Source of the DNA: Candidatus Omnitrophota bacterium
Lineage (GTDB): Bacteria > Omnitrophota > Gorgyraeia > Duberdicusellales > 4484-171
Reading direction: 5' to 3'
NCBI GenBank assembly: GCA_041652815.1
Contig: JBAZGN010000001.1
Coordinates: 182,315 to 246,314 of the forward strand
DNA: 64,000 nucleotides
Below are positions 42,808-64,000 of the stretch, piece after piece. Numbering within the stretch: position 1 is the first letter of the stretch; every line of letters starts with the position of its first letter. A program made the translations under genes and the position numbers. The notes under the pieces are model-generated. The model searched no databases. It saw only the letters and a list, made by a program, of their open reading frames with translations, and was not told where the DNA came from.

Positions 42808-43728
42808 TTAAAACTCTTTTATAAAGTCTATTTTTTCAATATTCTGCAATGGTTGTATTCTTATTCTAAGTTCATCAAGGTAAATATCTGTATTTCTTGG
42901 GTCTATTTTAAATTCATAAACATCCAATTCCCCTGTAGACTGTAATTTTTGAAAGCGGGCGAAAAGAACTTCGTTTTTGTACAATAGGACTTGTCTGTTT
43001 TCTGATTTTTGCAGGTAAACTCTTAAAGTTAAAGGAAAGCTGCTATGGCCGAAACCATACTTTTTAAAATCGAATACTGGCCCTTCCCCCTCTGTCTGAA
43101 AAAGCAATCCAGTTCCCCATAAAGAAAAATTAATATGATTTTTGATGTCTTCCTTTAACCTAACCATGACATTCCACCCTCCTAAATTTTTTCCGTAATA
43201 AAGAGCTAAAAGCATATTAACAAAAGCTTTTTTATCATCATTGTTCATCAAATAATATTTAGAAAGATATATGTAATTACGGTAATAAACAGGGAAAAGA
43301 CTGATTGCTTTTTCAATTTCATCTTCAGCTCTTTTATCCTTCGTCTGCGCATAAAACCAGCCAAGTTTTAAATGATATTCAAAATCTATTGGGTTTAGTT
43401 TTATTGCTTTTATGTATAACTTTTCAATATCCTCTTTATCGCCGAATAATGTTTCTTTAAAGTTTTCATTGAATGCACATGAAAGCAAATCTGCTTTTAA
43501 AACTAAATATTCGGCATTAGCTTTATTTAAATTTATTGCTTTTGAAATTAAATTTAAAGAGTCCATATAATAGTTAATTTCCCCTACTTTTGTTGATGGA
43601 AATTTAGTTTTTAATATTTTTTCGTAAAGTATATCTGCTATTAAATTAAAGGACAGAAATATTATAACCATAAATATGCTTATTGTTGCAAAAAGCAAAA
43701 ATTTGCTACTGATATTTTTTTCTTGCAT
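42808..43728 (-). CDS. Membrane-anchored TPR-like protein, function unknown; first gene of the polysaccharide locus block
   Basis: N-terminal TM helix, then helical repeats. Confidence 0.35.
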   Translation of the reverse strand: MQEKNISSKFLLFATISIFMVIIFLSFNLIADILYEKILKTKFPSTKVGEINYYMDSLNLISKAINLNKANAEYLVLKADLLSCAFNENFKETLFGDKEDIEKLYIKAIKLNPIDFEYHLKLGWFYAQTKDKRAEDEIEKAISLFPVYYRNYIYLSKYYLMNNDDKKAFVNMLLALYYGKNLGGWNVMVRLKEDIKNHINFSLWGTGLLFQTEGEGPVFDFKKYGFGHSSFPLTLRVYLQKSENRQVLLYKNEVLFARFQKLQSTGELDVYEFKIDPRNTDIYLDELRIRIQPLQNIEKIDFIKEF

Positions 43729-43740
43729 GTGGATAATTAA

Positions 43741-45033
43741 CTATTTCTCATCTGCGGGATTTCCGGAATGAAAATGTGTATATGCACATTTATATATTAA
43801 ACCTAAAAGCAACCAAAACAAAAAAGTTACTGCTGGGATATGGAAATTGAAATCAATAAAGCTATGTATTACCGTGCCGGCTATGCCGCAAAAACCGCCG
43901 ATAACTATATTTTTAACAAAAGGATCGTGCCGGTTGCTTGTTTCGTTTAAAATAGCTTTAAATAAACTAAAGAAAAAAACCAATAACAAAACTGCGCTAA
44001 TTAAACCGGCCTCAAAAAGAAACTGGAGATAGTCATTATGTAAATAATCGTAATAAGCTACGAACTTACTTCTTTGATATAGAGTAAATATATCACTAAA
44101 GTTACCTAACCCGACACCAAAAATGGGAAAGTTTTTAAAAATTGTAAATGCATCAGCAACAATTGTCCATCTATCCATTAAGCTATTCCACACGAAACTC
44201 ATTCTGTTACTAAGGGGGCCAAAGCCTGATATGGAGACAAGTACCAAAGCAAAGATAATCACCCCCATAATTATCCAATGTTGGTTTGTTTGCACTTTTT
44301 CTTTGGCTAACAAACAAGACATCATAATTAGTGCTATTATCAAACTGATCGATCCTCCTCTGGACAGCGAAAGAAAAACGCTTGCGCAGATTATAGCTGC
44401 TATAAAGCTAAAAATAATTTTCTTATATTTGTTCTTACAGTATAGGGCATAGGCGACGGAAACGTTTGAAATCATTATCATATATGCGGCAAAATGGTTT
44501 TTATTCCCAAAGGTGCTGAAGGAATAGGAACTTTGCCTTTGGAGAACGAAATATTTCTTTACAACTCCGTAAAGTGCCAGAGATAATCCAATAAAGATAA
44601 GAATCAATAGCATCCGCTCAAATTGTTTTTTTGTTGTAAAAATATTCAATACACAGATAAAAATAAGGAAAAAAGATACAAATTTTACTAGCTCCTCCAG
44701 CGTCACAATAGAATAGAACGATAATTGGCTAAAATTAGTAAAATAACCTCCGTATTGCTGTTTTAAAAGATAAGTGTTTGGGGAAATTATTTTTAAGAAA
44801 AAGACAGGAAAATATATTATTTGCAGGAACGTAATAGATAGAAAGATTATAAAAAGATTTATCTTGGCAGGATAAATTAATTTTTGATTATATTTTTTTG
44901 TTAGAAAAAGCAGGAACAAAAATATAAATAATGCAACCACCTCAATTACAAAAAGAGGTATTTTTTCAACTGACCCGTAAAAAAATGGACTGAGGATTGT
45001 AAGGAAAATTAAAAATAACTCTAAGGCTTTCAC
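43741..45033 (-). CDS. O-antigen ligase / Wzy_C-family polytopic membrane protein
   Basis: Ten or more TM helices and the Wzy_C signature YDYLHNDYLQFLFEAGLISAV in a periplasmic loop. Confidence 0.65.
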   Translation of the reverse strand: MKALELFLIFLTILSPFFYGSVEKIPLFVIEVVALFIFLFLLFLTKKYNQKLIYPAKINLFIIFLSITFLQIIYFPVFFLKIISPNTYLLKQQYGGYFTNFSQLSFYSIVTLEELVKFVSFFLIFICVLNIFTTKKQFERMLLILIFIGLSLALYGVVKKYFVLQRQSSYSFSTFGNKNHFAAYMIMISNVSVAYALYCKNKYKKIIFSFIAAIICASVFLSLSRGGSISLIIALIMMSCLLAKEKVQTNQHWIIMGVIIFALVLVSISGFGPLSNRMSFVWNSLMDRWTIVADAFTIFKNFPIFGVGLGNFSDIFTLYQRSKFVAYYDYLHNDYLQFLFEAGLISAVLLLVFFFSLFKAILNETSNRHDPFVKNIVIGGFCGIAGTVIHSFIDFNFHIPAVTFLFWLLLGLIYKCAYTHFHSGNPADEK

Positions 45034-45034
45034 G

Positions 45035-46867
45035 CTATTTCTCTGTTGGATAATAATGGTAGTAATAGTAGCGGTCTTGCCCTATCTTCGCGTCATTTAA
45101 AACTGTGCCTATTATCTTTACACGTGTATCAATGACCTTTTTAGCCTCCAGGATATACCCTATTTGTGTATGCCCTGATCTTATAACAAATATTATGCCA
45201 TCACATTTATCTCCCAAAATTAAAGCTTCTGATACATTCAATATTGGCGTTGAGTCTATGATTATTCTCTGAAATTTTTTTTCTAATTCTCGCAAAATCG
45301 TAGGTAATTTTTCAGAACTGAGCAATTCAGTGGGGTTAGGAGTATATGGGCCGGCTGGCAGCATAGATAGGTTAGGTATAGAAGTAGGGGTTATAGCTTC
45401 ATCGATGGAACACATTCCGGCCAGTAAATTGCTTAACCCATTCTTTGGTTTTATTCCGAAACTTTGGTGTAGATTTCCTTTACGCATATCAGCATCAATT
45501 AACAAAGTTGGCTCTTTTGTTTGAGCAAATATTATGGAAAGGTTTGAAGAAACAAAACTTTTGCCTTCTTGAGGCACAGAACTAGTAACAACAACTGTCC
45601 GCAAAGGTTTATCCTGCGGAAAAGAAAAAAGCAACGAAACTTTAAGGTTTCTAAAAACTTCAGCCAGTCTTGAACGAGGTTCGTTGAAAGAAAATAGAAA
45701 ATTGTTGTCGTTCTTTTTCTTCGATTCTCTTCTTAGGGAAGGTATGTAACCTAAAAATGGTAATTTTACAAAAAATTCAACCTCATCGGAAGTCTTTAAA
45801 GTTGAGTCTAATCTCTCTATCAGAAAAGCTACAGACACACTTAACAAAAAACCTAAGATAATGGCAATTGGGATATCTTTCTGTGGACTAGGTCTTATGG
45901 GGCTTTTTGGTTCTTCTGCCGGATCAAGCAACCTTATGTTTGAAAGTGTTAATTCCTTAGAAACATCCAATTCTTTTGCTCTTTTTAAAAAATCATCATA
46001 GAGAGAATTATAGGTGGTAACTTTTCTTTTAAGAATACCATATTCGGCCATTTTTTCCTGTAGAGCAAGCCTTTTATTTATTTCCTCGCTTAATTTTTCA
46101 TCAACCGTTCTTAGCTTGGTAACAAGAGAAATCATCTCAGGATGTTTCTCTTTATATCTCTGCGATGCCTCAGCAACTTCCTTTTCTAATTGTGCCTTTT
46201 GTTCTTTTAAACTTTCTATCAATGCTTCTGATTTTGTTTCAATATCTGGGATAGCAACTATCCGATTATCTTTTATGAAAACATTTAACGCTTTTTCTGC
46301 TTCACTTAAGCTTTTAAGTGTGTCGTTTAACTGGCTTTCTAAAAAAGTTATGCCATACTTGGCAGTTCCTACTTTTCGTTCAATATCCTGATATATAAAT
46401 TCCCGCACCCATGCATTTGCAATTGCCGTAATCTTTATAGGATCTTTTCCCGTAACCGAAATTGTTGCAGTAGAGCCCTGACGTGCAGGTTCAATTTTTA
46501 CCATAGAAAGAAGCTGGCCTGATGGGTCCTTTGAGTTGATGAATTCTGGATCTTTATCTAAACCTAAATTTTTAATAATCCGCTCTGCCAGAGAACGCGA
46601 CATAGCAATATTGATTTGGGTTTGATAATACTCTTTTTCTGTGGTTTTTTGTTCATAAACATCTTCGATTTTACCTGCAATTTTTGTCTTTTCTACCTCT
46701 AAAACAATTGAAGCCTGAGCACGGTATATTTTTGGAGAAGAAAAATCATAAAATATAACAGTTCCTGTTATAACTATTAAAACTGTAGATATAAATAAAG
46801 TATGTTTTTTCAACAAGTCAAAATAATCTTTTATTGTTAATTCTTTTACTTCCGCTGGAGGTATCAT
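45035..46867 (-). CDS. Polysaccharide co-polymerase / tyrosine autokinase (Wzc-like: Wzz domain + CpsD-type ATPase + C-terminal Tyr cluster)
   Basis: Two TM helices flanking a coiled-coil periplasmic domain; Walker A SSVPQEGKSFVSSNL; C-terminal RYYYYHYYPTEK. Confidence 0.8.
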   Translation of the reverse strand: MIPPAEVKELTIKDYFDLLKKHTLFISTVLIVITGTVIFYDFSSPKIYRAQASIVLEVEKTKIAGKIEDVYEQKTTEKEYYQTQINIAMSRSLAERIIKNLGLDKDPEFINSKDPSGQLLSMVKIEPARQGSTATISVTGKDPIKITAIANAWVREFIYQDIERKVGTAKYGITFLESQLNDTLKSLSEAEKALNVFIKDNRIVAIPDIETKSEALIESLKEQKAQLEKEVAEASQRYKEKHPEMISLVTKLRTVDEKLSEEINKRLALQEKMAEYGILKRKVTTYNSLYDDFLKRAKELDVSKELTLSNIRLLDPAEEPKSPIRPSPQKDIPIAIILGFLLSVSVAFLIERLDSTLKTSDEVEFFVKLPFLGYIPSLRRESKKKNDNNFLFSFNEPRSRLAEVFRNLKVSLLFSFPQDKPLRTVVVTSSVPQEGKSFVSSNLSIIFAQTKEPTLLIDADMRKGNLHQSFGIKPKNGLSNLLAGMCSIDEAITPTSIPNLSMLPAGPYTPNPTELLSSEKLPTILRELEKKFQRIIIDSTPILNVSEALILGDKCDGIIFVIRSGHTQIGYILEAKKVIDTRVKIIGTVLNDAKIGQDRYYYYHYYPTEK

Positions 46868-46924: not shown

Positions 46925-47773
46925 TTAAAAGAAAGACTCTGGAACAGAGATTATATCATTTTCTTTTAATTCCACATCCCTTGATTTATCACCGCTTTTA
47001 AGAATATGCGCAATAGGCACATTAAATGTTTCTTTTTTGTCTTGGCCAGGTGCTCTTCTTATCACTTTAACTGCATTCTGATCTGCAATGTCAGTGAACC
47101 CCCCAGCTAAAGCTATGGCTTCAATGGCCGTCAAACCTTTACTATACTTGTAACTCCCAGGCTTTCGTACCTGGCCTAAGACTGCTATGTCACCATATCC
47201 TTTCACAATTATTCTATCCAAGGGTTGTAATAAAAAATCTCTACCATGTTTGTTAAAATCTACTATATATTCTTTCTCTTCATTGCCAACTTTACGTATA
47301 ATCTTTATGTTTGTCAAATTGGCATTTTGCTTTGCGCCATCGGCAAGCGCTAAGGCTTCCAAAAGAGATAAGTTGCCTATTAATTCATAGCTGCCTTCGC
47401 TGTTTATTGCTCCGATAATAAAAAATTTAGCATATTCTTTTATAAAAATATTTACTTGCGGATTAACAAAATAATCTTTCTTGAGAAGATTTTCTATTTT
47501 AGCAGTTGCCTCTTTTGTGGTTAAATTTCCAATAATAATCTCTCCTATAAATGGATAAATTATCTTTCCTTCCTCGGACACCTTAACCGTTTTAGTCAAA
47601 TTGGGCTCTCCGTATACTGAAATTTCGATGGTATCCCCAGGCTTTATACGATAAACATAATTACCATCTTCCGAGGCAACAGCCTGCTTATCAACTTCTT
47701 TATTTGCCTGAGGATAAGCCATAAAAATGATAATAGAAAAAGTTATTAATAGAAATATTTTTTTTATCATCAA
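46925..47773 (-). CDS. Polysaccharide export protein (Wza-like, Poly_export + SLBB domains)
   Basis: Signal peptide; YRIKPGDTIEISVYGEPNL is the Poly_export motif; tandem SLBB-like repeats. Confidence 0.7.
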   Translation of the reverse strand: MMIKKIFLLITFSIIIFMAYPQANKEVDKQAVASEDGNYVYRIKPGDTIEISVYGEPNLTKTVKVSEEGKIIYPFIGEIIIGNLTTKEATAKIENLLKKDYFVNPQVNIFIKEYAKFFIIGAINSEGSYELIGNLSLLEALALADGAKQNANLTNIKIIRKVGNEEKEYIVDFNKHGRDFLLQPLDRIIVKGYGDIAVLGQVRKPGSYKYSKGLTAIEAIALAGGFTDIADQNAVKVIRRAPGQDKKETFNVPIAHILKSGDKSRDVELKENDIISVPESFF

Positions 47774-49398
47774 AACTCCGAATTTACGCTTAAGCTAATT
47801 GTGTTACCTTTAAATTCCTGCAGTTTTGTTTTCGATGTTCTGTCTTCAAAAGTATATTTTAAACCAAATAGTAACCATTTTCTGAATCTATATTCTGGAT
47901 TAAATGATACTAAAAGATAATTATCGCGCGTTTGGTAGTCTGAACCTCTTTGATAATAGGAAACATCTCCATTTAATCTTATTTTTTTAAGAAAAGGCGG
48001 GAGATAACTGCACCCCAAAGAAATTCCTTGATATTTTGTTATATTCTCAGCAAGCAAGTTAATATCCCCCAACCCCTGTACTACGTTCAAACGATAATTC
48101 AAACGCGGGGAAGCCTTATATGTTAAATTTGCTGCGATAGTTTTCCCATTTAAGTCTTTGACGCTCTTCCTTTTGTTAGAACTATAACCTCCTTTAATTG
48201 TGCCTTCGAGCTTTTTAAAAATTTTTCCTTTTAAACCCACAATATATTTATCATAAGCAAAGTTTTGAGCTATATTTTTGTCATAATCTAACCACCCATG
48301 AGCGTATTCTACAAAAATCTTTGTTTTTGGTAGAATTTTTAAAGAGTTCCTTAAAGCAATTACATTACGGATATGGTTTGATGGCTTATATTCATCGCTC
48401 ACATAACTATACAGGCCTCTGTTATATTGTATATCAGTTTCAAGCTTGTTGAAATTAATTTTGAAGTCTTGTCCCATTTCATAAATCCAAGAATCAACAA
48501 ACCTCTGTACTTCTTGATTACCCACGTCGCTAGCAGTACCCCTCGTCCGCATTACAGATGCAGACGTAATAAAACCAAACTTACCCAGTCCATATTTAAC
48601 GAACCCTTTTCCGTATGGATTTGTGTGATCATTCTGGTCTTCAGTTGCATAGCGTAAAATCTGTAATCCTGCATTTAAATATAAATCAAATTTTTTTTGT
48701 GATGTTGACCGCTTGAATTCAAAGCCAGGATATAACTTTGTTACATAACTATTAACCGGGTCGGTTTTTGTCTGATACAAATTATTCGTAAATTCCCCTA
48801 TTCCGATTATATAAGGATGTATGTTTTTCAGCGTAGCCTTAAGGCGATTACTTTTTATGTCTCGTTTTTCTACCAACGTTTTATTTTTTGTTTCGTTTTT
48901 TAACCTATTTATTTTAGATAAAGAAATGTTTTCTCCCTGGGTCTTTTGCGGAATTTTTGAAAAAGACAACTTTGTTCCATAAGACGGTTTGCTTTCTTTA
49001 GCTGTTATCGCTTTAACTGAAAATATTTGATTGTTTATCGCTTCTTTTTCTTTAACTGTTTTTTTTGTAAGTTTTTGTATGTGGGGTAAGTCGTTTGAAT
49101 TTTCTTGTTTTTTCCCAGTATGTTTTATTCCTCCAAGACCTTGCTTTGAAGAAACTTTAGGTGTTGATAAAATTTTTTTTTGCTGCGTTATTTTTTTCAT
49201 TGAAGATGCTATTACTTTGGCTCTGCTAGTTTTTTCTTGTTTTTGTATACTTATTGTTGTATCTTCTTCCCGGGCCGATTTATCGTTCCGTTCTGTGTAA
49301 AAATCAAGAGTATAGGAAACAAGCTCTTTCCGTGACAATTCTGCATAAACCGAGTTGAACATTAGCAAATTTACGCAAAAAAATAAAACTATCTTCAC
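47770..49398 (-). CDS. Outer-membrane beta-barrel protein of the export module
   Basis: Signal peptide, a K/S/T-rich linker, alternating-polarity strands, and a C-terminal aromatic (SVNSEF). Confidence 0.5.
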   Translation of the reverse strand: MKIVLFFCVNLLMFNSVYAELSRKELVSYTLDFYTERNDKSAREEDTTISIQKQEKTSRAKVIASSMKKITQQKKILSTPKVSSKQGLGGIKHTGKKQENSNDLPHIQKLTKKTVKEKEAINNQIFSVKAITAKESKPSYGTKLSFSKIPQKTQGENISLSKINRLKNETKNKTLVEKRDIKSNRLKATLKNIHPYIIGIGEFTNNLYQTKTDPVNSYVTKLYPGFEFKRSTSQKKFDLYLNAGLQILRYATEDQNDHTNPYGKGFVKYGLGKFGFITSASVMRTRGTASDVGNQEVQRFVDSWIYEMGQDFKINFNKLETDIQYNRGLYSYVSDEYKPSNHIRNVIALRNSLKILPKTKIFVEYAHGWLDYDKNIAQNFAYDKYIVGLKGKIFKKLEGTIKGGYSSNKRKSVKDLNGKTIAANLTYKASPRLNYRLNVVQGLGDINLLAENITKYQGISLGCSYLPPFLKKIRLNGDVSYYQRGSDYQTRDNYLLVSFNPEYRFRKWLLFGLKYTFEDRTSKTKLQEFKGNTISLSVNSEF

Positions 49399-59081: not shown

Positions 59082-60293
59082 CTATGCTCTTTCTATCTTC
59101 GTTAACAAAAAATCTATAGCATTTGTTACTTCTTCGATGCTAATTATATCCATGCAAGCGCTTATACCATTTTTTGTATGTTTGCAATGAGACAAAGAGC
59201 AAGGGCGTTTACAAAAATAATCTTTTTTTACAATATAGACATTTTTTTGACAAGGGCCTGTAATATCGGGATCGGCAGGCCCGAAGATTGCAACGGTAGG
59301 CACAGAAGAAATACAAGCAAGATGCATTATGCTTGTATCTGGACAAACAAGTAAACTGGCTTTTCCTAGCAATATAGAAAGCTCGCTAATATTTAACCTA
59401 CCGCAAAGATTTATAACTTTATTGTTTTGCATTAGTTTAACAATTTTCTCTGTTAAGGGGGCTTCTTCTTTGCTCCCAGTCAATATAATATACCATGCAT
59501 ATTTGTTTTTTATAAAATCGGCCACCTTGGCATATCGGTTTAGTGACCATAATCTCTTATTTTGACTTGCGCCAGGGTGAATGATAGCGAAAAAATCGTT
59601 CTTTCTTAGGCCATAAGATTCGAAAACCTCTTCAGCTTTCTTAATGTCTTCACGACAATAATATATTTGAATTTTCTTATCAATTTTCTCAATACCGATT
59701 TGTTTGAGTAAATTAATTTTTCTTTGTATAATATGCAAAGATGCATCAAAAAACACCGGTTTGCTTAATAAATATGCTCCTCCTGTTCTATCGTAACTTA
59801 AAGTATATTTTACCTTTGGTAAAAAAAGAAAGAATATAATATTACGGATGTCCCCTCTCAAATCAATTCCCAGATCAAAATTTTTTGATTTTAATAGCTT
59901 AGATATCTCTTGGTAATGTTTCAAATATCGAAAACAATTAATTGCTTGCGAGAAATTTATCTGTTTAGAATATACCCAAGGACAACTCTCAACTATAATT
60001 TCGTCAATATAAGGATTGTTCTTTAAAATTTCACTGCCAATCGAGCTTACCAAAACCGACATACGAGCGGAAGGAAATTTATATTTTAATGCAGCGAAGA
60101 TTGGTATTGATATAATTACATCGCCTAACGGTTCTTCTTCTATAACAAGAATCTTTTGTGGATTGATTTTGGTTAACTCATTTTTTTTTATATCCCACAA
60201 ACCTAAAAATCTTCCAGAATAAAATATAATTTTACCGATGCAATCAAGGACTAATGCTATTTTTTTATTAACTGGGTTATCTATTTCAATCAT
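59082..60293 (-). CDS. Glycosyltransferase family 9 (heptosyltransferase-like) with a Cys-rich C-terminal tail
   Basis: ILVIEEEPLGDVIISIPIF is the GT9 N-terminus; C-terminal CKRPCSLSHCKHTKNGISAC. Confidence 0.65.
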   Translation of the reverse strand: MIEIDNPVNKKIALVLDCIGKIIFYSGRFLGLWDIKKNELTKINPQKILVIEEEPLGDVIISIPIFAALKYKFPSARMSVLVSSIGSEILKNNPYIDEIIVESCPWVYSKQINFSQAINCFRYLKHYQEISKLLKSKNFDLGIDLRGDIRNIIFFLFLPKVKYTLSYDRTGGAYLLSKPVFFDASLHIIQRKINLLKQIGIEKIDKKIQIYYCREDIKKAEEVFESYGLRKNDFFAIIHPGASQNKRLWSLNRYAKVADFIKNKYAWYIILTGSKEEAPLTEKIVKLMQNNKVINLCGRLNISELSILLGKASLLVCPDTSIMHLACISSVPTVAIFGPADPDITGPCQKNVYIVKKDYFCKRPCSLSHCKHTKNGISACMDIISIEEVTNAIDFLLTKIERA

Positions 60294-60385: not shown

Positions 60386-61534
60386 TTACTCTGGATTTAA
60401 GTAAATTCTTTTCTTCTTTTCCTTTTGGATCTCTTTATATACTTTAATTGTTTCTTTAGTAATCTTATCCCAATTATGCAAGTTGCGCACTGCTCTCGCA
60501 GCATTAAGCCCCACTTTTTTTACTATATCCTGCCGTTCTACGAGATATTTTAGCCGCTGGCTTAAATCATTTACATCATCAACTTTGAACGTAAAACCAA
60601 TAGTATAATCTTCTCCTATTTTACAATTCTGTAATATTTCAACATTAGCTGGGATATTGCTAGCTATAACACATCGACCAAACCACATAGCTTCTAATAA
60701 CGCTATACTCTGACCCTCTACGCGCGATGGATGAACATATAGAGCAGCATTAGCGTATAGAGTGGCTAATTCTTGACCAAAAACATATCCTGCAAAAACG
60801 GCTCTGTCTTTCCCAATCTCTTTAAGCTGTTGGATATAACTAAGGTGCTGTTTTGAATCCCCCACAACAGCTACTTTCAGTTTCTCCGGCAAACATTTTA
60901 CTGCTTTTAGAAGTATCTCTATCGCGCGATCTGGTATAATTCTACCTACAGTTAATATATAAAAACCGGCTTGTAAACCGTATCGTTCACATATATCTTG
61001 CCCACCTGGGTCAGGTAAACCCACGCCATTTGGGATAATGTAGGGTTGACGACCTGTAACGCGTTTAACTTCTAGGGCGAGGGGCGTAGATACAGCAATA
61101 AATCCGTCTGCTAAAGCAGCAGAGACTTTTAAACATAATCGGAGATAAATTCTCCCAAGGCTTCCCCATTGTGTTTCTTCCCAAGATGGAGCGTGAAGTG
61201 TACAAATCACTATAGGTTTAATCAAGGGGGACATTATTGCAAGCCATTGTATCCCCAAATTGTGTAAATGTATTATATCAAAATTGTCAAATTGAGCCAT
61301 CACAAATGAAATAAGAGAATGACTTATTGTTTCTAGATATCTAAAGGGGAACCTTGGAAGGCGAATTAATTTTACTCTTCCTAATCTTTCTTTTGATAAT
61401 GTATAATCATTTCGACAGAAGACCGTTACTTCATGCCCCTGTTCTGCTAATCTCCTGCTTAGATTCTCTACATGATGCTCAATGCCACCGTATTTTGCTG
61501 GTATACCTTTTAATCCCACAAAGGCTATTTTCAT
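60386..61534 (-). CDS. Glycosyltransferase family 4 (GT-B)
   Basis: EGQSIALLEAMWFGRCVIASN is the EX7E motif region. Confidence 0.8.
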   Translation of the reverse strand: MKIAFVGLKGIPAKYGGIEHHVENLSRRLAEQGHEVTVFCRNDYTLSKERLGRVKLIRLPRFPFRYLETISHSLISFVMAQFDNFDIIHLHNLGIQWLAIMSPLIKPIVICTLHAPSWEETQWGSLGRIYLRLCLKVSAALADGFIAVSTPLALEVKRVTGRQPYIIPNGVGLPDPGGQDICERYGLQAGFYILTVGRIIPDRAIEILLKAVKCLPEKLKVAVVGDSKQHLSYIQQLKEIGKDRAVFAGYVFGQELATLYANAALYVHPSRVEGQSIALLEAMWFGRCVIASNIPANVEILQNCKIGEDYTIGFTFKVDDVNDLSQRLKYLVERQDIVKKVGLNAARAVRNLHNWDKITKETIKVYKEIQKEKKKRIYLNPE

Positions 61535-62991
61535 GATTTACTCATTAACATCTTCAGAAATTTCAAGAACGTTGTCGCCTTATGCAAGCAATCTCCCGCT
61601 GAACGTATTTTCAATATCTGTCGAATAATCTTTTGGGGGCGACAATATTGATAAAAATAAGCCTTTTTCAAAAATTTCTTCATTTCCTCTCCACTAACAT
61701 TTGGCAGGGAAATTATTGCCTCCCTTGAATTATCAACAGGCATGAAATCGTTGGTGGGCGTAGTGAACCATCTGTTAGCTTTCACAATATCATAATATTC
61801 TGTATTTGGAAAAGGTAATATGATACCAAAATGGGTGAATCGAGTGTTTAGCTTGTTTGCTTCCCTAAGCGAATATGCTATATCCTCTTTAGTTTCCAAA
61901 GGCGATGCCCCCATAATTACCGATATCTCTGGCTCTATACCGCATTCTCTCAATGCATTGACAGCAATCTTAATATCTTCCGCTTTCATTTCCTTACGAA
62001 TATCATCGAGAATCGCCTGTCTAAAAGATTCGGTCCCCATATACACCAATTGACAACCTGCTTCTCGCATTGCTTTAAGTATTTCCTTATCATGCATTGC
62101 CGCTGCCCTCGCAAGACAAATCCATTGCAATCCTAAACCTTTTATCCCTTGGCAAATTTCCAATGTTCTTTCTTTGCCCCAAATAAATTGATTATCACAT
62201 ATCTCGACCCCTTTATAGCCCAATTTAGCGATATCTTTAAATTCCTCAATCACATGTTCTACTGAACGTAGACGAAGCGGCGGCCTGTTTGTGTATTTAA
62301 CTTGTCCTTTCTTATATTCTATTTCGATTGCCTGATCAATTGCGTTCGGTGCACAAAATTTACATCGAAAAGCACATCCGCGCGACACGCACATATTTGT
62401 TATCGGAAAAACATTTAGTCGATTGATTCTATATAATCCTTTATATAACCTTCGATCGGGTAGTGGCAAAGTATCTAAATTAACGAAACCTCTCGCTTTA
62501 TTATGATGCACCTCTCCATTTTTCAAGTATGAAATTCCACAAATATTCTGAAAATCTGGATTTTTAGTAGAAAAAAGTTCTTGGATAGTTCCCTCTGGCT
62601 CACCGCGAATGACTACATATCTTAAATCATATAAAAACATCTCTGGTTTCCATGTGGGTGAAGTTCCAGCAAAGACAAATTTTGTTTCGGGATAAAACTC
62701 CCCTATCATTTTAGCTGCCTTTAGATCATCTTCATTGGACAAATAGACTGTAAAAAAATAAACCCAGTCAAAAGCGTTTGTTCTAATGAAGTTTAAGAAT
62801 GCGTCTGTATTTATATTCTCAGCCCTACAATCCATAAGCCTGACTTCATGGCCTAATTGCTGTGCTACAGTTGCCTGACTTAACAAATGTACTGGGGGGG
62901 TATAGCCAAAACCATAATTGCAACCATAGGTCCGATCTGGAATGCCTTTCGGGTTAAAATCAACTGGCGGGACCAGAAATAATAGTCTCAT
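61531..62991 (-). CDS. B12-binding-domain radical SAM enzyme
   Basis: N-terminal Rossmann-like B12-binding-type domain (RLLFLVPP..., ...FVFAGTSP) and CVSRGCAFRCKFC (CxxxCxxC). Confidence 0.75.
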   Translation of the reverse strand: MRLLFLVPPVDFNPKGIPDRTYGCNYGFGYTPPVHLLSQATVAQQLGHEVRLMDCRAENINTDAFLNFIRTNAFDWVYFFTVYLSNEDDLKAAKMIGEFYPETKFVFAGTSPTWKPEMFLYDLRYVVIRGEPEGTIQELFSTKNPDFQNICGISYLKNGEVHHNKARGFVNLDTLPLPDRRLYKGLYRINRLNVFPITNMCVSRGCAFRCKFCAPNAIDQAIEIEYKKGQVKYTNRPPLRLRSVEHVIEEFKDIAKLGYKGVEICDNQFIWGKERTLEICQGIKGLGLQWICLARAAAMHDKEILKAMREAGCQLVYMGTESFRQAILDDIRKEMKAEDIKIAVNALRECGIEPEISVIMGASPLETKEDIAYSLREANKLNTRFTHFGIILPFPNTEYYDIVKANRWFTTPTNDFMPVDNSREAIISLPNVSGEEMKKFLKKAYFYQYCRPQKIIRQILKIRSAGDCLHKATTFLKFLKMLMSKS

Positions 62992-64000
62992 GCCTCTCCT
63001 TTCATTTTTGTCTTCATGTAGACTTCCTTAAAAACTCCTAATGTTTCTTTTGCTGCTTTTCTCCATAAAAACATCTCTGCGCGATTAAGTCCTTTTTGCT
63101 TAAGTTCTAATCTCAGATTATCATTTGATAAAACTTCATACATACCTCTGGCTATCTCCTCGACAGAAAAGGGGTTAACTAGTAAAGCTGCGTTCCCCGT
63201 TATCTCTGGTAGGGAAGAAATATTTGATGTTACTACAGGACAAGCGCAAGCCATAGCTTCTACCACAGGCAAACCAAAACCTTCGTAAATAGATGGGTAT
63301 ACAAAAATATCAGCCGCATTGTAAAAAAGGGGCAGTTCTTTCTCCGAAACATAACCAATAAATACTACTTCTTGCAGCAAATTTAAATCCTTAACTTTTT
63401 GAAGAACTTCATCATAACACCATCCTTTCGGACCGCATAAAACTAATTTGTGTTCAATAAGTTTCTCTTTTTTAAGTATATTAAAAGCGGAAATCAGCCT
63501 AATAAGATTCTTTCTTGGCTCTATAGTCCCCACATTTAAAATAAATTTAGGGAGTATATTGTATTTAATTTTAATCCAATTGATTTTATCAATATCGTTA
63601 ATTACTCTAAATATTCCCCTATTACAGCCATTGTAAACAGCTTTGATTTTTTTCGGGCTTATTTTTAATAATCTTGAAATTTCTTCTTTAGAAAAATTAG
63701 AAACGGTTAAAATCACCGTTGCCAATCTTTTTATTATGGGTATAGTGAGTTTTAAATAAATTAAAAAAAAAATCTGGACTGTTTCTGGATACCTAACGAA
63801 AGTTGCATCATGAATAGTAAAAATAACCGGGCATGGAGAAAATATTGGGCATAAGTATCCGGGGCAGAATAAAATATTTATTTTATCTTTTTTCAATAAA
63901 ATCGGTAAAGATATTTGTACCCAAAAAATAGTCCTTATCCAATTTAACAATATGATAAATATGTTTTTGCTATCTCCCAAAATAATTCTTTTCTTCTTTG
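62988..64000 (-). CDS. Glycosyltransferase family 4, 5' end beyond the window
   Basis: EGFGLPVVEAMACACPVVTSN. The frame stays open to the window edge; the ORF-track start is a TTG. Confidence 0.7.
   Translation of the reverse strand, partial: KKKRIILGDSKNIFIILLNWIRTIFWVQISLPILLKKDKINILFCPGYLCPIFSPCPVIFTIHDATFVRYPETVQIFFLIYLKLTIPIIKRLATVILTVSNFSKEEISRLLKISPKKIKAVYNGCNRGIFRVINDIDKINWIKIKYNILPKFILNVGTIEPRKNLIRLISAFNILKKEKLIEHKLVLCGPKGWCYDEVLQKVKDLNLLQEVVFIGYVSEKELPLFYNAADIFVYPSIYEGFGLPVVEAMACACPVVTSNISSLPEITGNAALLVNPFSVEEIARGMYEVLSNDNLRLELKQKGLNRAEMFLWRKAAKETLGVFKEVYMKTKMKGEA

What the first reader, a model, noticed from the sequence alone, without database searches (positions are those of the whole stretch)
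42808..64000. ~21-kb unidirectional exopolysaccharide locus with built-in c-di-GMP circuitry (HAMP-GGDDF sensor + stand-alone PilZ) and two radical-SAM enzymes
Eighteen consecutive minus-strand genes: GT4, B12-rSAM, GT4, GT9, FkbM methyltransferase, Wzy-like, rSAM-SPASM, PglC-like primer, GGR-like reductase, HAMP-GGDDF, TPR, PilZ, OM barrel, Wza, Wzc, Wzy_C ligase and a TPR anchor. It combines a Wzx/Wzy-type (or synthase-independent) pathway with a dedicated outer-membrane exporter. It embeds its own second-messenger source and receptor, analogous to Pel/cellulose systems but in a different biosynthetic framework. The glycan is likely methylated (FkbM, B12-rSAM) and further modified (SPASM rSAM). 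No flippase (Wzx) gene appears in the window, so the locus may continue to the right.
Basis: partly seen in the sequence, partly recalled or inferred. Interest (0 to 1): 0.65.

Follow-up and report, generated by a model that had tools for sequence, protein, structure and literature searches.

The report
Surface-polysaccharide export locus with c-di-GMP switch
This is the export end of a surface-sugar (capsule or slime) gene region of at least 40 kb in an uncultured Omnitrophota bacterium. A receptor for the signalling molecule c-di-GMP sits inside the export operon, which suggests an unstudied way of switching this common type of sugar-export machine on and off.

Summary
**Observation.**
- There are 17 minus-strand genes, not 18.
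- A small conserved plus-strand gene (51950-52174) interrupts the run.
- The locus continues at least 19.4 kb beyond the window's right end.

**What it is.** It belongs to a Candidatus Omnitrophota MAG and has three layers:
- A strain-variable glycan-building part. It includes a CDP-3,6-dideoxyhexose gene (RfbH), pyruvyl transferases, radical-SAM enzymes and an MsbA/PglK/HepA-type ABC exporter. No Wzx was seen.
- A conserved assembly and export cassette: small phosphoglycosyl transferase (PGT), geranylgeranyl-reductase (GGR)-like flavoprotein, TPR protein, beta-barrel, class-3 OPX ending in the porin-docking motif PESFF, Wzc, a second Wzy_C protein and a TM-TPR protein.
- A c-di-GMP module found only in some lineages: HAMP-GGDDF and PilZ.

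**c-di-GMP parts.**
- PilZ keeps invariant RxxxR and NxSxxG motifs, and its model is closest to Alg44's PilZ. In all 7 loci that have it, it lies inside the export operon.
- That operon starts at a promoter conserved in the seven loci that carry PilZ and, with a longer spacing to the start codon, in one locus that lacks it.
- The cyclase always neighbours the GGR gene, even at a locus without EPS genes. Its dedication to this pathway, and its activity, are therefore less certain.

**Verdict.** A new variant of a known kind: a Wzy-type, class-3 OPX/porin pathway with an inferred PilZ-based post-translational switch. Nothing here has been tested experimentally.

The parts
62988..64000 (-). GT4 glycosyltransferase. 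Its 5' end lies beyond the window; the full gene encodes 383 aa.
   Evidence: Pfam Glycos_transf_1 1.7e-38. The full-length gene is seen in the identical contig L001 at 8853-10004.
61531..62991 (-). B12-binding-domain radical SAM enzyme acting on the glycan or a sugar precursor. Its chemistry is unknown.
   Evidence: Pfam B12-binding + Radical_SAM. Best NCBIfam match is HpnJ at 181 bits, below the cut-off of 577. The only PDB relative is AprD4, 6FD2, E 5e-17.
60386..61534 (-). GT4 glycosyltransferase
   Evidence: Pfam Glyco_transf_4 + Glycos_transf_1. It overlaps the upstream gene by 4 nt.
59082..60293 (-). GT9 (heptosyltransferase-family) glycosyltransferase
   Evidence: Pfam Glyco_transf_9 2.1e-34. 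NCBIfam heptosyltransferase models all score below their cut-offs.
58198..59019 (-). FkbM-family methyltransferase
   Evidence: Pfam Methyltransf_21 1e-11. NCBIfam fkbM_fam scores 51 bits, above the cut-off of 37.7.
56730..58121 (-). Polytopic Wzy_C protein (about 10 TM segments). Candidate strain-specific repeat-unit polymerase.
   Evidence: Pfam Wzy_C 4.5e-11. About 10 hydrophobic segments. No significant BLASTP similarity to the conserved Wzy_C protein at 43741-45033.
55486..56643 (-). Radical SAM / SPASM enzyme; substrate unknown
   Evidence: Pfam Radical_SAM + Fer4_12 + SPASM. Only generic NCBIfam and PDB relatives.
54659..55306 (-). Small (PglC-type) polyprenyl-phosphate phosphoglycosyl transferase, the initiating enzyme
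   Evidence: Pfam Bac_transf 2.8e-60. One N-terminal hydrophobic helix. It sits directly upstream of the GGR gene in the window, L005, L006, L095 and L097.
53505..54641 (-). Geranylgeranyl-reductase-family flavoprotein. Inferred to saturate a polyprenyl lipid, possibly the glycan carrier.
   Evidence: NCBIfam GG-red-SF 156.3 bits against a cut-off of 158.8. AF2 model pLDDT 88.9; top PDB matches are the GGRs 3OZ2 (E 4.9e-26) and 4OPT/3ATQ. 67-74% identical across the cassettes.
52182..53498 (-). Membrane sensor: TM, about 160-aa periplasmic domain, TM, HAMP, then a GGDEF-type cyclase domain with motif HEGGDDF
   Evidence: Pfam HAMP + GGDEF. TM segments at 4-22 and 183-201. HxGGDDF is present in 145 of the 150 closest cluster representatives, and Asp occupies the base-specificity position. 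No RxxD I-site (read from the sequence).
51950..52174 (+). Small convergent gene encoding a 74-aa secreted protein of unknown function
   Evidence: Signal-peptide-like N-terminus. A motif (S/V)LKD(L/F/M)V(I/V)T near the C-terminus is shared with L003, L005 and L006; an ORF of similar size and orientation occupies the same position in all cyclase-bearing loci. No Pfam hit.
51808..51909 (-). 33-codon remnant of a gene for a membrane protein of about 160 aa. The gene is intact in related loci.
   Evidence: The window ORF MSMNYNILEHKHLRIVIVTVFYL... matches the N-terminus of the 159-162-aa ORFs in L003 and L006, and a 134-aa ORF in L097.
51710..51737 (-). Conserved sigma-70-type promoter of the export operon, 7 nt upstream of the TPR start codon. 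This implies a leaderless or near-leaderless mRNA.
   Evidence: TTGACA-16 nt-TG-TATAGT, 11 of 12 matches. The element is present in L003, L005, L006, L008, L010 and L097, 7-10 nt from the start codon, and in L096 about 20 nt from it, while the flanking sequence has diverged.
49963..51702 (-). Inner-membrane-anchored periplasmic TPR scaffold protein (579 aa)
   Evidence: TPR Pfam families down to 7e-41. One N-terminal TM segment. Its stop codon overlaps the PilZ start by 4 nt.
49415..49966 (-). PilZ c-di-GMP receptor with a C-terminal transmembrane hairpin
   Evidence: Pfam PilZ 5.4e-10. R14, N41, S43 and G46 are invariant and R10 is at least 90% conserved in 32 homologues. AF2 model pLDDT 78.7; top PDB matches are the Alg44 PilZ-c-di-GMP complexes 4XRN, 4RT0 and 4RT1.
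47770..49398 (-). Outer-membrane beta-barrel (Wzp/EpsX-like porin candidate) with a basic, low-complexity N-terminal extension
   Evidence: Pfam BBP2_2 4.4e-11 covering 17-376 of 378 model positions. NCBIfam TIGR03016/EpsL below their cut-offs. It overlaps the OPX gene by 4 nt.
46925..47773 (-). Class-3 OPX protein: Poly_export + 2 SLBB domains, no Wza_C helix, C-terminus PESFF
   Evidence: Pfam. The best PDB relative is M. xanthus WzaB, 9N9A, E 1.4e-28, with the same C-terminal VPESFF. The window copy and its five PilZ-sampled orthologues end in (E/D)(S/G)FF.
45035..46867 (-). Wzc-type polysaccharide co-polymerase fused to a BY-kinase (PCP-2a)
   Evidence: Pfam Wzz + GNVR + AAA_31. NCBIfam eps_fam scores 161.7 bits, above the cut-off of 108. 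Two TM segments; C-terminal tail RYYYYHYYPTEK.
43741..45033 (-). Conserved Wzy_C / O-antigen-ligase-family polytopic protein. Candidate ligase, or a glycan-independent polymerase.
   Evidence: Pfam Wzy_C 5.3e-18. 47-62% identical across loci whose glycan genes differ. No PDB sequence relative.
42808..43728 (-). Last gene of the cassette: a protein with an N-terminal TM segment, a short TPR region and a conserved C-terminal domain; function unknown
   Evidence: Pfam TPR_17 1.5e-07 only. Present in the six PilZ-sampled loci at 34-50% identity.

Best explanation
**What it is.** Window 42808-64000 is the downstream half of a cell-surface polysaccharide (capsule, EPS or O-antigen-like) region of at least 40 kb in an Omnitrophota bacterium. 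It has three layers.

1. **Strain-variable glycan module** (window about 55.4-64 kb plus at least 19 kb beyond). It makes activated sugars, including a CDP-3,6-dideoxyhexose via RfbH. It builds a lipid-linked repeat unit with GT4, GT2 and GT9 enzymes. It decorates the unit with pyruvyl transferases, an FkbM methyltransferase and three radical-SAM enzymes. It also encodes its own Wzy-like polymerase and an MsbA/PglK/HepA-type ABC exporter, which probably replaces Wzx as the flippase.
2. **Conserved cassette that initiates and exports.**
   - A small PGT starts synthesis on polyprenyl phosphate.
   - A geranylgeranyl-reductase-like flavoprotein is inferred to modify that lipid.
   - Wzc (co-polymerase and tyrosine kinase) controls polymerisation.
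   - A class-3 OPX protein docks through its C-terminal Phe-Phe onto a separate outer-membrane beta-barrel. An inner-membrane-anchored periplasmic TPR protein acts as scaffold.
   - A second, conserved Wzy_C protein and a TM-TPR protein finish the operon, possibly ligating the polymer to an anchor.
3. **c-di-GMP module present in some lineages only.** A HAMP-GGDDF membrane sensor with a periplasmic input domain is inferred to make c-di-GMP. A membrane-anchored PilZ, translationally coupled to the TPR gene, is inferred to bind it and switch polymerisation or export on post-translationally. The role resembles that of Alg44 in alginate secretion, but here it acts on a Wzy-type, OPX/porin machine.

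**Shown here:** gene content, domain identities, motif conservation, conserved synteny, the conserved promoter, and the fold of PilZ and GGR.

**Inferred:** every enzymatic activity, c-di-GMP binding, the target of PilZ, the flippase role of the ABC protein and the substrate of the GGR.
For: **Domains.**

**Extension.** The locus extends beyond the window, with RfbH above its NCBIfam cut-off (688.6 bits against 423) and a HepA/MsbA/PglK-type ABC protein.

**Same cassette, different glycan genes.**
- The same cassette order is found in L003, L005, L006, L008, L010 and L097, each with different upstream glycan genes.
- L010 has different downstream flanks, so the cassette is a unit and not just chromosomal synteny.

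**PilZ.**
- R14 and the NxSxxG motif are invariant, and R10 is at least 90% conserved.
- The PilZ model matches the Alg44 PilZ-c-di-GMP complexes best.
- PilZ always lies between the TPR and barrel genes (7 of 7 loci), and the TPR stop overlaps the PilZ start.

**OPX.** It is homologous to M. xanthus WzaB (9N9A, E 1.4e-28) with an identical C-terminal PESFF. That Phe-Phe is the experimentally defined porin-docking motif. No Wza_C domain was found.

**GGDDF domain.**
- It keeps the DxD metal site, Asn, and Asp at the base-specificity position.
- HxGGDDF is the signature of a large subfamily: 870 cluster representatives at E<=1e-30, and 145 of the top 150 carry it.
- A second member, REC-GGDDF, is in the same window.
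- A GGDDF enzyme, GSU1937, has been shown to be active (PMC8835794).

**Export operon.** A conserved TTGACA-N16/17-TG-TATAGT promoter precedes the TPR gene in the seven PilZ-bearing loci and in L096. Spacings inside the operon are tight: -4, 16, -4, 57, 1 and 12 nt.

**GGR.** The fold is confirmed.
Against: **No experimental support.** There are no expression, binding or activity data. The organism is uncultured.

**Doubts about the cyclase.**
- GGDDF departs from the canonical GG[D/E]EF motif, and another GGDDF protein (PA3258) is reported inactive.
- The cyclase gene tracks the GGR gene rather than the export genes. In L098 the pair lies among isoprenoid genes with no EPS genes. In L094 and L098 it is on the opposite strand.
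- In L096 a related cassette has neither the cyclase nor PilZ. The module is therefore dispensable for the machinery itself.
- The window holds at least one other GGDDF cyclase and one other PilZ protein, so signalling need not be local.

**Other gaps.**
- The PilZ of L010 lacks the TM hairpin.
- The OPX has no lipobox cysteine, unlike WzaB, whose oligomerisation needs lipidation.
- No Wzx and no Wzb phosphatase were seen in about 40 kb.
- The barrel's strand number and its relation to Wzp/EpsX were not tested.
Confidence: 0.6

Rival explanations
1. The polysaccharide locus is real, but the HAMP-GGDDF protein is not its dedicated signal source. It is a general envelope or lipid-state sensor, functionally tied to the neighbouring GGR flavoprotein. 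It feeds a cell-wide c-di-GMP pool, and only PilZ is specific to the export machine.
For: The GGDDF gene is next to the GGR gene in 9 of 9 loci that carry it. These include L098, which has isoprenoid genes (LytB, SQS_PSY, polyprenyl synthase, UbiA) and no EPS genes, and L094, which has no PilZ, barrel, OPX or Wzc within 10 kb. The cyclase and export genes are in different transcription units, separated by a convergent gene and a promoter. A FIST / histidine kinase / REC-GGDDF system lies in the same window.
Against: In 8 of 9 loci the cyclase gene is also immediately followed by the TPR gene of the export operon. The arrangement GGR, cyclase, small ORF, TPR, PilZ is kept at 46-65% protein identity and with different flanks.
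Confidence: 0.25
2. The GGDDF domain is catalytically dead. It acts as a receptor or scaffold, like PelD or B. subtilis YdaK, so the locus holds two receptors and no source.
For: The fourth residue of GG[D/E]EF is changed to Asp, and the Arg before the motif is His (HEGGDDF). Degenerate GGDEF domains usually lack activity, and PA3258 (GGDDF-EAL) is reported inactive. Pfam matches only positions 5-100 of the 161-position model.
Against: Receptor-type degenerate GGDEF domains bind c-di-GMP through the RxxD I-site, which is absent here (NNND). The metal-binding DxD and the base-contacting Asn and Asp are kept. HxGGDDF is strictly conserved in a large subfamily that includes REC-GGDDF response regulators, the usual architecture of active cyclases. 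GSU1937's GGDDF domain made both cGAMP and c-di-GMP.
Confidence: 0.15
3. The product is not a free exopolysaccharide. It is an LPS O-antigen or other anchored glycoconjugate, and the conserved Wzy_C protein is a WaaL-like ligase that attaches the polymer to lipid A-core, a lipid or a protein.
For: There are two unrelated Wzy_C proteins. One lies in the variable part, and the other is conserved across loci with different glycans, as expected for a ligase that recognises a constant acceptor. GT9 heptosyltransferase-family enzymes and RfbH-type dideoxyhexose genes are typical of LPS. There is a weak NCBIfam match to an 'exosortase-associated O-glycosylation ligase'.
Against: Wzc with a tyrosine-kinase tail, an OPX protein and a dedicated porin are hallmarks of capsule or EPS export, not of the Lpt route used by O-antigen. 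The two readings are not exclusive: group 1 capsules also occur as K-LPS (own knowledge).
Confidence: 0.25
4. The PilZ and cyclase genes are passengers kept by synteny in closely related genomes and have no role in polysaccharide production.
For: All PilZ-bearing loci come from one phylum. Five of the seven share the same downstream housekeeping genes: tRNA-binding, YjbQ, RNase T and HypF. The downstream flank of L097 was not captured. L096 shows the machinery exists without them.
Against: L010 has different flanks but the same internal order. The TPR stop and PilZ start overlap. PilZ binding motifs are under purifying selection while the rest of the protein has diverged to 40-46% identity. 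PilZ lies inside a tightly spaced operon behind a conserved promoter.
Confidence: 0.07

Closest known systems
Myxococcus xanthus EPS/BPS/MASC Wzx/Wzy pathways with a class-3 OPX (WzaX/S/B, EpsY) plus beta-barrel porin (WzpX/S/B, EpsX) translocon (PMC9601211, PMC9603273, PMC12819527)
   Same: - The OPX protein has only Poly_export and SLBB domains and no OM-spanning helix.
- Its gene is adjacent to, and overlaps, a beta-barrel gene.
- It is a sequence homologue of WzaB (9N9A, E 1.4e-28) with an identical C-terminal PESFF porin-docking tail.
- A Wzc-type PCP lies next door.
   Different: - The OPX has no lipobox, whereas WzaB needs lipidation.
- The barrel matches Pfam BBP2_2 (PEP-CTERM-associated type), and its kinship to Wzp/EpsX was not tested.
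- A 579-aa TPR protein and a PilZ are part of the operon.
- An ABC exporter is present instead of Wzx.
- The Class-3 OPX paper searched for these terms (PMC12819527) mentions neither c-di-GMP nor TPR, and the composite-translocon papers discuss TPR proteins only for synthase-dependent pathways.
Alginate secretion: Alg44 (PilZ-TM-periplasmic domain), AlgK (TPR) and AlgE (barrel); more generally the synthase-dependent systems Bcs, Pel and Pga
   Same: - The PilZ model is closest to Alg44's PilZ bound to c-di-GMP.
- PilZ is cytoplasmic and membrane-anchored.
- A periplasmic TPR protein is combined with an outer-membrane barrel.
- By analogy, c-di-GMP would act post-translationally.
   Different: - There is no processive GT2 synthase in the cassette.
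- Polymer assembly uses a PGT, Wzy_C proteins, Wzc and an OPX, which is Wzy-type.
- PilZ and the periplasmic scaffold are separate proteins.
E. coli group 1 capsule / colanic acid Wza-Wzb-Wzc system
   Same: The PCP-2a Wzc has two TM segments, a P-loop kinase and a C-terminal Tyr cluster. An OPX homologue is present (E about 1e-17 to Wza structures). Initiation is by a PGT.
   Different: The OPX lacks the Wza_C alpha-helical pore. No Wzb phosphatase and no Wzx were seen. A separate porin, a TPR protein, a PilZ and a GGR are added.
XrtA/XrtB PEP-CTERM-exosortase-associated EPS loci (EpsL / TIGR03016 barrel, pepcterm_export, PrsT)
   Same: The best NCBIfam names for the barrel, OPX, TPR and kinase parts come from these systems.
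   Different: All these scores are below the curated cut-offs. No exosortase gene was found in any ORF scanned in the window or in the related loci.
YfiN/TpbB-type HAMP-GGDEF envelope sensors, and GSU1937 (membrane-bound GGDDF cyclase of Geobacter)
   Same: The architecture matches: TM, periplasmic domain, TM, HAMP, GGDEF (NCBIfam DgcN/YfiN alignment 37-344, below cut-off). It shares the GGDDF motif with GSU1937, the only GGDDF enzyme shown active.
   Different: GSU1937 has Ser at the specificity position and makes cGAMP, whereas this protein has Asp, which predicts c-di-GMP. No YfiR or YfiB homologues were identified; only an unrelated small secreted ORF lies next door.
c-di-GMP control of other surface glycans: Caulobacter holdfast effector HfsK (PMC5362036) and the E. 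coli N4 glycan receptor (NGR) pathway (PMC8669472). Both are known here from title and abstract only. HfsJ and DgcJ-NfrB local signalling are from my own knowledge.
   Same: They are precedents for post-translational c-di-GMP control of a surface polysaccharide.
   Different: The receptors there are enzymes or an MshEN-type domain, not a stand-alone PilZ encoded inside a Wzc/OPX/porin export operon.
Cyanobacterial heterocyst-envelope polysaccharide genes (HepA ABC exporter, HepC PGT)
   Same: The ABC protein's best NCBIfam model is the HepA family (472.7 bits), and the PGT also matches HepC.
   Different: Both scores are below their cut-offs (725 and 140). The phylum and the cassette are different.

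Membership tests
Wzx/Wzy-dependent polysaccharide pathway | Initiating polyprenyl-phosphate phosphoglycosyl transferase | tested here: met
   Bac_transf 2.8e-60, 215 aa, small PglC-like form.
Wzx/Wzy-dependent polysaccharide pathway | Wzx (MOP/Polysacc_synt) flippase | tested here: not met
   No Polysacc_synt or MATE-type protein among the genes called across about 40 kb. An MsbA/PglK/HepA-type ABC half-transporter is present instead. The upstream end of the locus was not reached.
Wzx/Wzy-dependent polysaccharide pathway | Wzy-type polymerase (polytopic, Wzy_C) | tested here: met
   Two Wzy_C proteins: 463 aa in the variable part and 430 aa in the conserved part. Which one polymerises is not known.
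Wzx/Wzy-dependent polysaccharide pathway | PCP-2a co-polymerase with a BY-kinase and Tyr-rich tail | tested here: met
   Wzz + GNVR + AAA_31. eps_fam scores 161.7 bits, above the cut-off of 108. Two TM segments; tail RYYYYHYYPTEK.
Class-3 OPX / beta-barrel composite translocon (WzaB-WzpB, EpsY-EpsX) | OPX with Poly_export + SLBB only, no Wza_C or GfcC | tested here: met
   Pfam lists only Poly_export, SLBB and SLBB_2 for the 282-aa protein. Class definition from PMC9603273.
Class-3 OPX / beta-barrel composite translocon (WzaB-WzpB, EpsY-EpsX) | C-terminal Phe-Phe porin-docking motif | tested here: met
   The protein ends in PESFF, as does WzaB (9N9A). The window copy and its five PilZ-sampled orthologues end in FF; L096 and L097 end in WF.
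Class-3 OPX / beta-barrel composite translocon (WzaB-WzpB, EpsY-EpsX) | Adjacent gene for an integral outer-membrane beta-barrel | tested here: met
   BBP2_2 4.4e-11 over the full model. The gene overlaps the OPX gene by 4 nt.
Class-3 OPX / beta-barrel composite translocon (WzaB-WzpB, EpsY-EpsX) | 18-stranded barrel structurally like PgaA, AlgE or Wzp | not tested
   A profile search of PDB sequences found nothing.
Class-3 OPX / beta-barrel composite translocon (WzaB-WzpB, EpsY-EpsX) | N-terminal lipidation of the OPX (needed for WzaB oligomerisation) | tested here: not met
   No lipobox cysteine in the window protein or in 4 of its 5 orthologues. The N-termini look like Sec/SPI signals. About 30% of class-3 OPX proteins are SPI type.
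PilZ c-di-GMP receptor | RxxxR and (D/N)xSxxG binding motifs | tested here: met
   R10-x3-R14 and N41-I-S43-A-G-G46. R14, N41, S43 and G46 are invariant and R10 is at least 90% conserved in 32 homologues.
PilZ c-di-GMP receptor | Six-stranded PilZ beta-barrel fold | tested here: met
   The AF2 model has six strands between residues 20 and 97. The top Foldseek hits are Alg44 PilZ, MotI and BcsA PilZ (probability 1.00; TM-score about 0.57 normalised to the target).
PilZ c-di-GMP receptor | Measured c-di-GMP binding | not testable with these tools
   Needs ITC, DRaCALA or MST with purified protein.
Active GGDEF diguanylate cyclase | Canonical GG[D/E]EF active-site motif | tested here: not met
   The motif is GGDDF, preceded by HE. 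It is conserved as HxGGDDF in 145 of the 150 nearest cluster representatives.
Active GGDEF diguanylate cyclase | Metal-binding DxD, and the base-contacting Asn and Asp (PleD N335 and D344 equivalents) | tested here: met
   The sequence reads YCDLDNFKAFNDKYGIAKGD. Alignment to T. maritima and WspR cyclases is. Asp is at the specificity position in 111 of 150 relatives. The mapping to PleD numbering is from my own knowledge.
Active GGDEF diguanylate cyclase | RxxD inhibitory I-site | tested here: not met
   NNND occupies the I-site position. The site is not required for activity, and its absence argues against a receptor role.
Synthase-dependent EPS systems (Alg, Bcs, Pel, Pga) | Processive membrane GT2 synthase coupled to the c-di-GMP receptor | tested here: not met
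   The conserved cassette holds no GT2 synthase. The GT2 genes in the variable part are small soluble-type enzymes of 280-341 aa.
Synthase-dependent EPS systems (Alg, Bcs, Pel, Pga) | Periplasmic TPR scaffold plus outer-membrane barrel | tested here: met
   A TPR protein with an N-terminal anchor and a BBP2_2 barrel lie in the same operon.
PEP-CTERM / exosortase EPS system | Exosortase (EpsH/XrtA) gene, and equivalog-level matches for EpsL, PrsT and pepcterm_export | tested here: not met
   No exosortase was found among the window ORFs scanned or in the related loci. TIGR03016 scores 58.6 against 90.85, TIGR03027 128.6 against 180, and PrsT 72 against 312.
Geranylgeranyl reductase family | Family HMM above cut-off | tested here: inconclusive
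   TIGR02032 scores 156.3 bits against a cut-off of 158.8.
Geranylgeranyl reductase family | GGR fold closest among flavoproteins | tested here: met
   3OZ2 at E 4.9e-26 (TM-score 0.76) and Sulfolobus GGR at 1e-20. Other flavin enzymes start at about 1e-19.

The most novel reading that the evidence does not exclude
In a clade of Omnitrophota, a Wzy-type, class-3 OPX/porin polysaccharide machine has acquired a split 'Alg44/AlgK-like' gate. A membrane-anchored PilZ, translationally coupled to an inner-membrane-anchored periplasmic TPR scaffold, transmits c-di-GMP made by a neighbouring GGDDF-type cyclase. The signal licenses polymerisation or export post-translationally. This would be a hybrid of the two export paradigms usually treated as separate. 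A conserved GGR-like reductase may also give the pathway its own partly saturated (dolichol-like) polyprenyl carrier.
Probability: 0.3. Interest if true: 0.7.

Novelty: new variant of a known kind. Interest (0 to 1): 0.45.

Why it matters
- **Open question.** How Wzx/Wzy-type pathways are controlled after translation is acknowledged as poorly understood. c-di-GMP control has been worked out mainly for synthase-dependent systems (PMC12802240). A PilZ gene fixed inside a Wzc/OPX/porin operon gives a concrete, testable candidate for such control.
- **Natural controls.** Related cassettes with the module (L097) and without it (L096) already exist in complete genomes.
- **Crossover between export types.** A stand-alone TPR scaffold, typical of synthase-dependent export, is joined here to the recently described class-3 OPX/porin translocon.
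- **GGDDF cyclases.** GGDDF-type cyclases appear to be the standard c-di-GMP enzymes in this organism. This bears on how 'degenerate' GGDEF domains are annotated.
- **Limits.** Everything is inferred from sequence in an uncultured phylum. c-di-GMP control of exopolysaccharides is in general a familiar theme.

Tried and rejected
1. **c-di-GMP riboswitch or other RNA element.** Rfam at gathering threshold, and at E<=1 over 42300-64000, found nothing relevant. The gap instead holds a small gene, a gene remnant and a promoter.
2. **PEP-CTERM/exosortase system.** All NCBIfam scores are below their cut-offs and no exosortase was found. Rejected as a membership.
3. **Extending the contig through the species-representative genome collection.** The source genome is not in it. 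The scan returned only RfbH homologues of 55-64% identity from many phyla. Extension succeeded instead through exact-protein look-ups.
4. **PDB sequence-profile searches for the barrel and the conserved Wzy_C protein.** No hits.
5. **Intrinsic terminators as operon boundaries.** 23 terminator-like sites were found against 11.8 expected, but most are inside genes and none marks a clear boundary.
6. **B12-rSAM as a C-methylase.** Not supported by its nearest characterised relatives, HpnJ and AprD4.
7. **PilZ or cyclase remnants in L094-L096.** tblastn found none.
8. **Pfam on the small conserved ORFs.** The 74-aa secreted ORF and the 160-aa membrane ORF gave no family.

Full report
**Observation.** Window 42808-64000 carries 17 closely spaced minus-strand ORFs. 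In transcription order these are:
- GT4 (cut by the window end), B12-binding radical SAM, GT4, GT9, FkbM methyltransferase
- a 463-aa Wzy_C protein, radical SAM-SPASM, a 215-aa Bac_transf phosphoglycosyl transferase
- a geranylgeranyl-reductase (GGR)-family flavoprotein, HAMP-GGDEF (motif GGDDF), a 579-aa TPR protein
- a 183-aa PilZ protein, a BBP2_2 beta-barrel, a 282-aa Poly_export+SLBB protein
- a Wzc-type co-polymerase/kinase, a 430-aa Wzy_C protein and a 306-aa TM/TPR protein

The count is 17, not 18. The left boundary is genuine. The next genes are tRNA-binding, YjbQ, RNase T, HypF and HypD, and G+C falls from about 0.38 to about 0.33 at the boundary.

**Source and true extent.** The PilZ protein is annotated in public data as coming from a Candidatus Omnitrophica/Omnitrophota MAG, on an 810,962-bp contig. 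An independent assembly contig is identical to the window over 12,470 bp. It shows that same-strand polysaccharide genes continue at least 19.4 kb beyond position 64000:
- the full 383-aa GT4, then GT1 and GT2 enzymes
- a 609-aa ABC_membrane+ABC_tran protein; its best NCBIfam models are HepA (472.7 bits), MsbA (396) and PglK (204), all below cut-off
- a GT34-like protein and epimerases/reductases
- RfbH (688.6 bits against a cut-off of 423), a dTDP-sugar-isomerase-like protein and a nucleotidyl transferase
- two polysaccharide pyruvyl transferases, another GT9, two GT2 enzymes and a third radical SAM enzyme

No Wzx-type flippase appears in about 40 kb, so the ABC half-transporter is the best flippase candidate. 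The upstream end of the region was not reached.

**Modular architecture.** I looked up homologues of the PilZ protein and, independently, of the GGR protein.
- Six other Omnitrophota loci (L003, L005, L006, L008, L010, L097) share one order: GGR, HAMP-GGDDF, a small convergent ORF, usually a membrane ORF of about 135-160 aa, TPR, PilZ, barrel, OPX, Wzc, Wzy_C and a protein of about 310 aa.
- Identities to the window are 60-77% for GGR, the cyclase and Wzc, and 33-64% for the rest.
- The genes upstream differ from locus to locus: NeuB/CMP-sugar genes in L003, FemAB-like, deacetylase and methyltransferase genes in L010, a carbamoyltransferase in L097, and so on. The glycan-building part is therefore strain-variable, as in capsule or O-antigen loci.
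- L010 has different downstream flanks (PilW-like, Rce1-like). The cassette is therefore a unit and not merely conserved chromosomal synteny.

**Export machinery.**
- The 282-aa OPX protein has only Poly_export and two SLBB domains and no Wza_C. This is the definition of class-3 OPX proteins (PMC9603273).
- Its best solved relative is M. xanthus WzaB (9N9A, E 1.4e-28), and both proteins end in VPESFF. The terminal Phe-Phe of WzaB is the experimentally defined contact with the porin WzpB and is essential for secretion (PMC12819527).
- The window's OPX and its five PilZ-sampled orthologues end in FF. The two more distant ones end in WF.
- The preceding gene overlaps the OPX gene by 4 nt. It encodes a BBP2_2 beta-barrel with a basic, low-complexity N-terminal extension.
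- Unlike WzaB, the OPX has no lipobox cysteine.
- Wzc has two TM segments, a P-loop domain and the tail RYYYYHYYPTEK.
- The two Wzy_C proteins are unrelated by BLASTP. The one in the variable part is the likelier repeat-unit polymerase. The one conserved across different glycans may be a ligase or another glycan-independent component.

**The c-di-GMP parts: PilZ.**
- PilZ has R10-x3-R14 and N41-x-S43-x-x-G46. R14, N41, S43 and G46 are invariant and R10 is at least 90% conserved in 32 homologues.
- Its AlphaFold model (pLDDT 78.7) is a six-stranded barrel followed by a long helix and a TM hairpin.
- The closest solved structures are the Alg44 PilZ domain bound to c-di-GMP, then MotI and BcsA.
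- The TPR stop codon overlaps the PilZ start.
- In all seven loci that contain it, PilZ lies between the TPR and barrel genes.

**The c-di-GMP parts: the cyclase.**
- Its architecture is TM, a periplasmic domain of about 160 aa, TM, HAMP, GGDEF.
- It keeps the DxD metal site and the Asn and Asp that contact guanine. It has HEGGDDF instead of RxGG(D/E)EF and no RxxD I-site.
- HxGGDDF is not a local decay. It is present in 145 of the 150 closest cluster representatives of a subfamily with 870 members at E<=1e-30. Many of these are REC-GGDDF response regulators.
- A second member (REC-HIGGDDF, 10725-11663, behind a FIST sensor and a histidine kinase) lies in this same window.
- The only GGDDF enzyme tested, Geobacter GSU1937, was active. 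It has Ser at the specificity position and makes cGAMP (PMC8835794). The protein here has Asp, which predicts c-di-GMP.

**How tightly the two parts are tied to the pathway.** GGR-based sampling, which is unbiased with respect to PilZ, gave five loci.

| Locus | Content |
|---|---|
| L097 (complete genome) | Whole cassette including the cyclase and PilZ |
| L096 (complete genome) | GGR, TPR, barrel, OPX, Wzc, Wzy_C; no cyclase or PilZ; a GGDEF-HD-GYP gene just downstream |
| L094 | GGR, cyclase (opposite strand) and TPR only |
| L095 | PGT and GGR at the end of a glycan cluster |
| L098 | GGR and cyclase (opposite strand) among isoprenoid genes (LytB, SQS_PSY, polyprenyl synthase, UbiA); no EPS genes |

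Three conclusions follow:
- PilZ is an integral part of the export operon.
- The cyclase is bound most tightly to the GGR gene (9 of 9 loci) and only usually to the export genes (8 of 9).
- The machinery can exist without either. The c-di-GMP module is an add-on in some lineages.

**GGR-like protein.** It scores 156.3 bits against a cut-off of 158.8 on the GGR family model. Its model (pLDDT 88.9) is closest to the archaeal GGRs 3OZ2 (E 4.9e-26) and 4OPT/3ATQ. It is a phylum-wide Omnitrophota protein, with 412 homologues at E<=1e-20. It sits directly after the PGT in five loci and next to polyprenyl genes in L098. The simplest inference is that it saturates a polyprenyl chain, possibly the glycan carrier lipid. 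This is unproven.

**Transcription units.** The 479-bp gap between the cyclase and TPR genes holds three features:
- A plus-strand 74-aa ORF (51950-52174) has a signal peptide. A motif of the form (S/V)LKD(L/F/M)V(I/V)T near its C-terminus is shared with three other loci, and an ORF of similar size and orientation occupies the same position in all cyclase-bearing loci.
- A 33-codon remnant (51808-51909) is left from the membrane-protein gene of about 160 aa that is intact in L003, L006 and L097.
- A TTGACA-16-TG-TATAGT promoter (51737-51710) ends 7 nt before the TPR ATG. The same element, with the same short distance to the start codon, is present in L003, L005, L006, L008, L010 and L097. It is also present in L096, though about 20 nt from the start codon, and the flanking sequence has diverged.

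The export genes TPR, PilZ, barrel, OPX, Wzc, Wzy_C and the last gene are therefore an operon of their own. Its mRNA is probably leaderless, and its internal spacings are -4 to 57 nt. Rfam finds no riboswitch in the region.

**Glycan chemistry.** RfbH, a nucleotidyl transferase, dehydratase-type and reductase-type enzymes point to a CDP-3,6-dideoxyhexose. Two pyruvyl transferases and FkbM point to pyruvylation and methylation. The B12-binding radical SAM enzyme is nearest to HpnJ and to the diol-dehydratase AprD4. A C-methylase role is therefore only one possibility.

**Most likely mechanism.**
1. A repeat unit is built on polyprenyl phosphate, starting with the small PGT.
2. It is flipped, probably by the ABC protein.
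3. It is polymerised by a Wzy_C protein under Wzc control.
4. It is passed through the class-3 OPX ring, docked by its FF tail on the barrel, with the TPR protein as periplasmic scaffold.
5. In this clade, c-di-GMP binds the membrane-anchored PilZ and licenses polymerisation or export. The c-di-GMP is plausibly made by the adjacent GGDDF sensor in response to a periplasmic or membrane cue.

Steps 1-4 follow from family knowledge. Step 5 rests on motif conservation and gene order only. The rivals are:
- a general rather than dedicated cyclase
- an inactive GGDDF domain
- an anchored glycoconjugate rather than a free EPS
- passenger genes kept by synteny

**Comparison and novelty.** The export core is a member of the class-3 OPX/porin type described in Myxococcus (PMC9601211, PMC9603273, PMC12819527). 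The regulatory idea resembles Alg44, AlgK and AlgE of the synthase-dependent alginate system. What I did not find described is the combination: a stand-alone PilZ and a TPR scaffold inside a Wzc/OPX/porin operon, next to a GGDDF sensor and a GGR. My literature searches returned no such case. A 2025 paper states that post-translational control of Wzx/Wzy pathways is incompletely understood, whereas c-di-GMP control is characteristic of synthase-dependent ones (PMC12802240). I rate it a new variant of a known kind, of moderate interest. All function is inferred, the organism is uncultured, and c-di-GMP control of exopolysaccharides is a familiar theme.

Noticed in passing
window 29508-31481 (-), with 31750-32133 and 32326-34692: A second PilZ-domain protein (657 aa; N-terminal PilZ at 22.9 bits, just above cut-off; weak GH76-like region). 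It lies next to a small TPR protein and a 788-aa TPR + DUF3857 + transglutaminase-core + DUF3858 protein. This may be another c-di-GMP-linked envelope module.
   Followed up: partly
window 8024-11663 (+): A FIST-domain sensor, a histidine kinase and a REC-GGDEF response regulator whose cyclase domain has the same PLTxLPGN...HIGGDDF signature as the locus cyclase. GGDDF-type domains may be this organism's standard cyclases.
   Followed up: partly
window 2-5830 (-) and 6133-7842 (-): A two-partner secretion pair. The TpsB (ShlB/FhaC-type, POTRA + Omp85) sits upstream of a giant TpsA-like exoprotein (TPS domain, GLUG motifs). At least 1,943 aa of it lie inside the window, and it runs off the window start, so the ORF lister did not report it.
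   Followed up: partly
window 51808-51909 (-): A 33-codon remnant of a conserved membrane-protein gene of about 160 aa. The gene is intact between the small ORF and the TPR gene in L003, L006 and L097, so this genome has a recent deletion.
   Followed up: yes
window 51710-51737 (-) and homologous sites in L003, L005, L006, L008, L010, L096, L097: A strongly conserved extended -10 promoter. It lies only 7-10 nt from the start codon in the seven PilZ-bearing loci, implying a leaderless export-operon mRNA, and about 20 nt from it in L096. The spacer also keeps an AAAAC element, which might be a regulator site.
   Followed up: partly
L098 1-12421: In a more distant Omnitrophota genome the GGR + HAMP-HEGGDDF pair sits among isoprenoid genes (LytB, squalene/phytoene synthase, amine-oxidase-type desaturase, lycopene-cyclase fragment, polyprenyl synthase, UbiA prenyltransferase) instead of polysaccharide genes.
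   Followed up: partly
window 18509-18669 (-): A 6S RNA match just above the Rfam gathering score (47.4 bits against 46.4).
   Followed up: no
window 42001-64000: G+C is 0.31-0.36 across the polysaccharide region, against 0.37-0.44 elsewhere in the window. This fits a horizontally exchanged, strain-variable surface-glycan region.
   Followed up: no
window 11755-12525 (+) next to tRNA-Leu 12582-12665: A stand-alone LAGLIDADG_3-domain protein (256 aa) lies immediately upstream of a tRNA-Leu(GAG) gene.
   Followed up: no
L096 20586-21116: The cassette that lacks HAMP-GGDDF and PilZ is followed directly by a GGDEF + HD-GYP protein. c-di-GMP enzymes recur next to this export cassette in a different form.
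   Followed up: no
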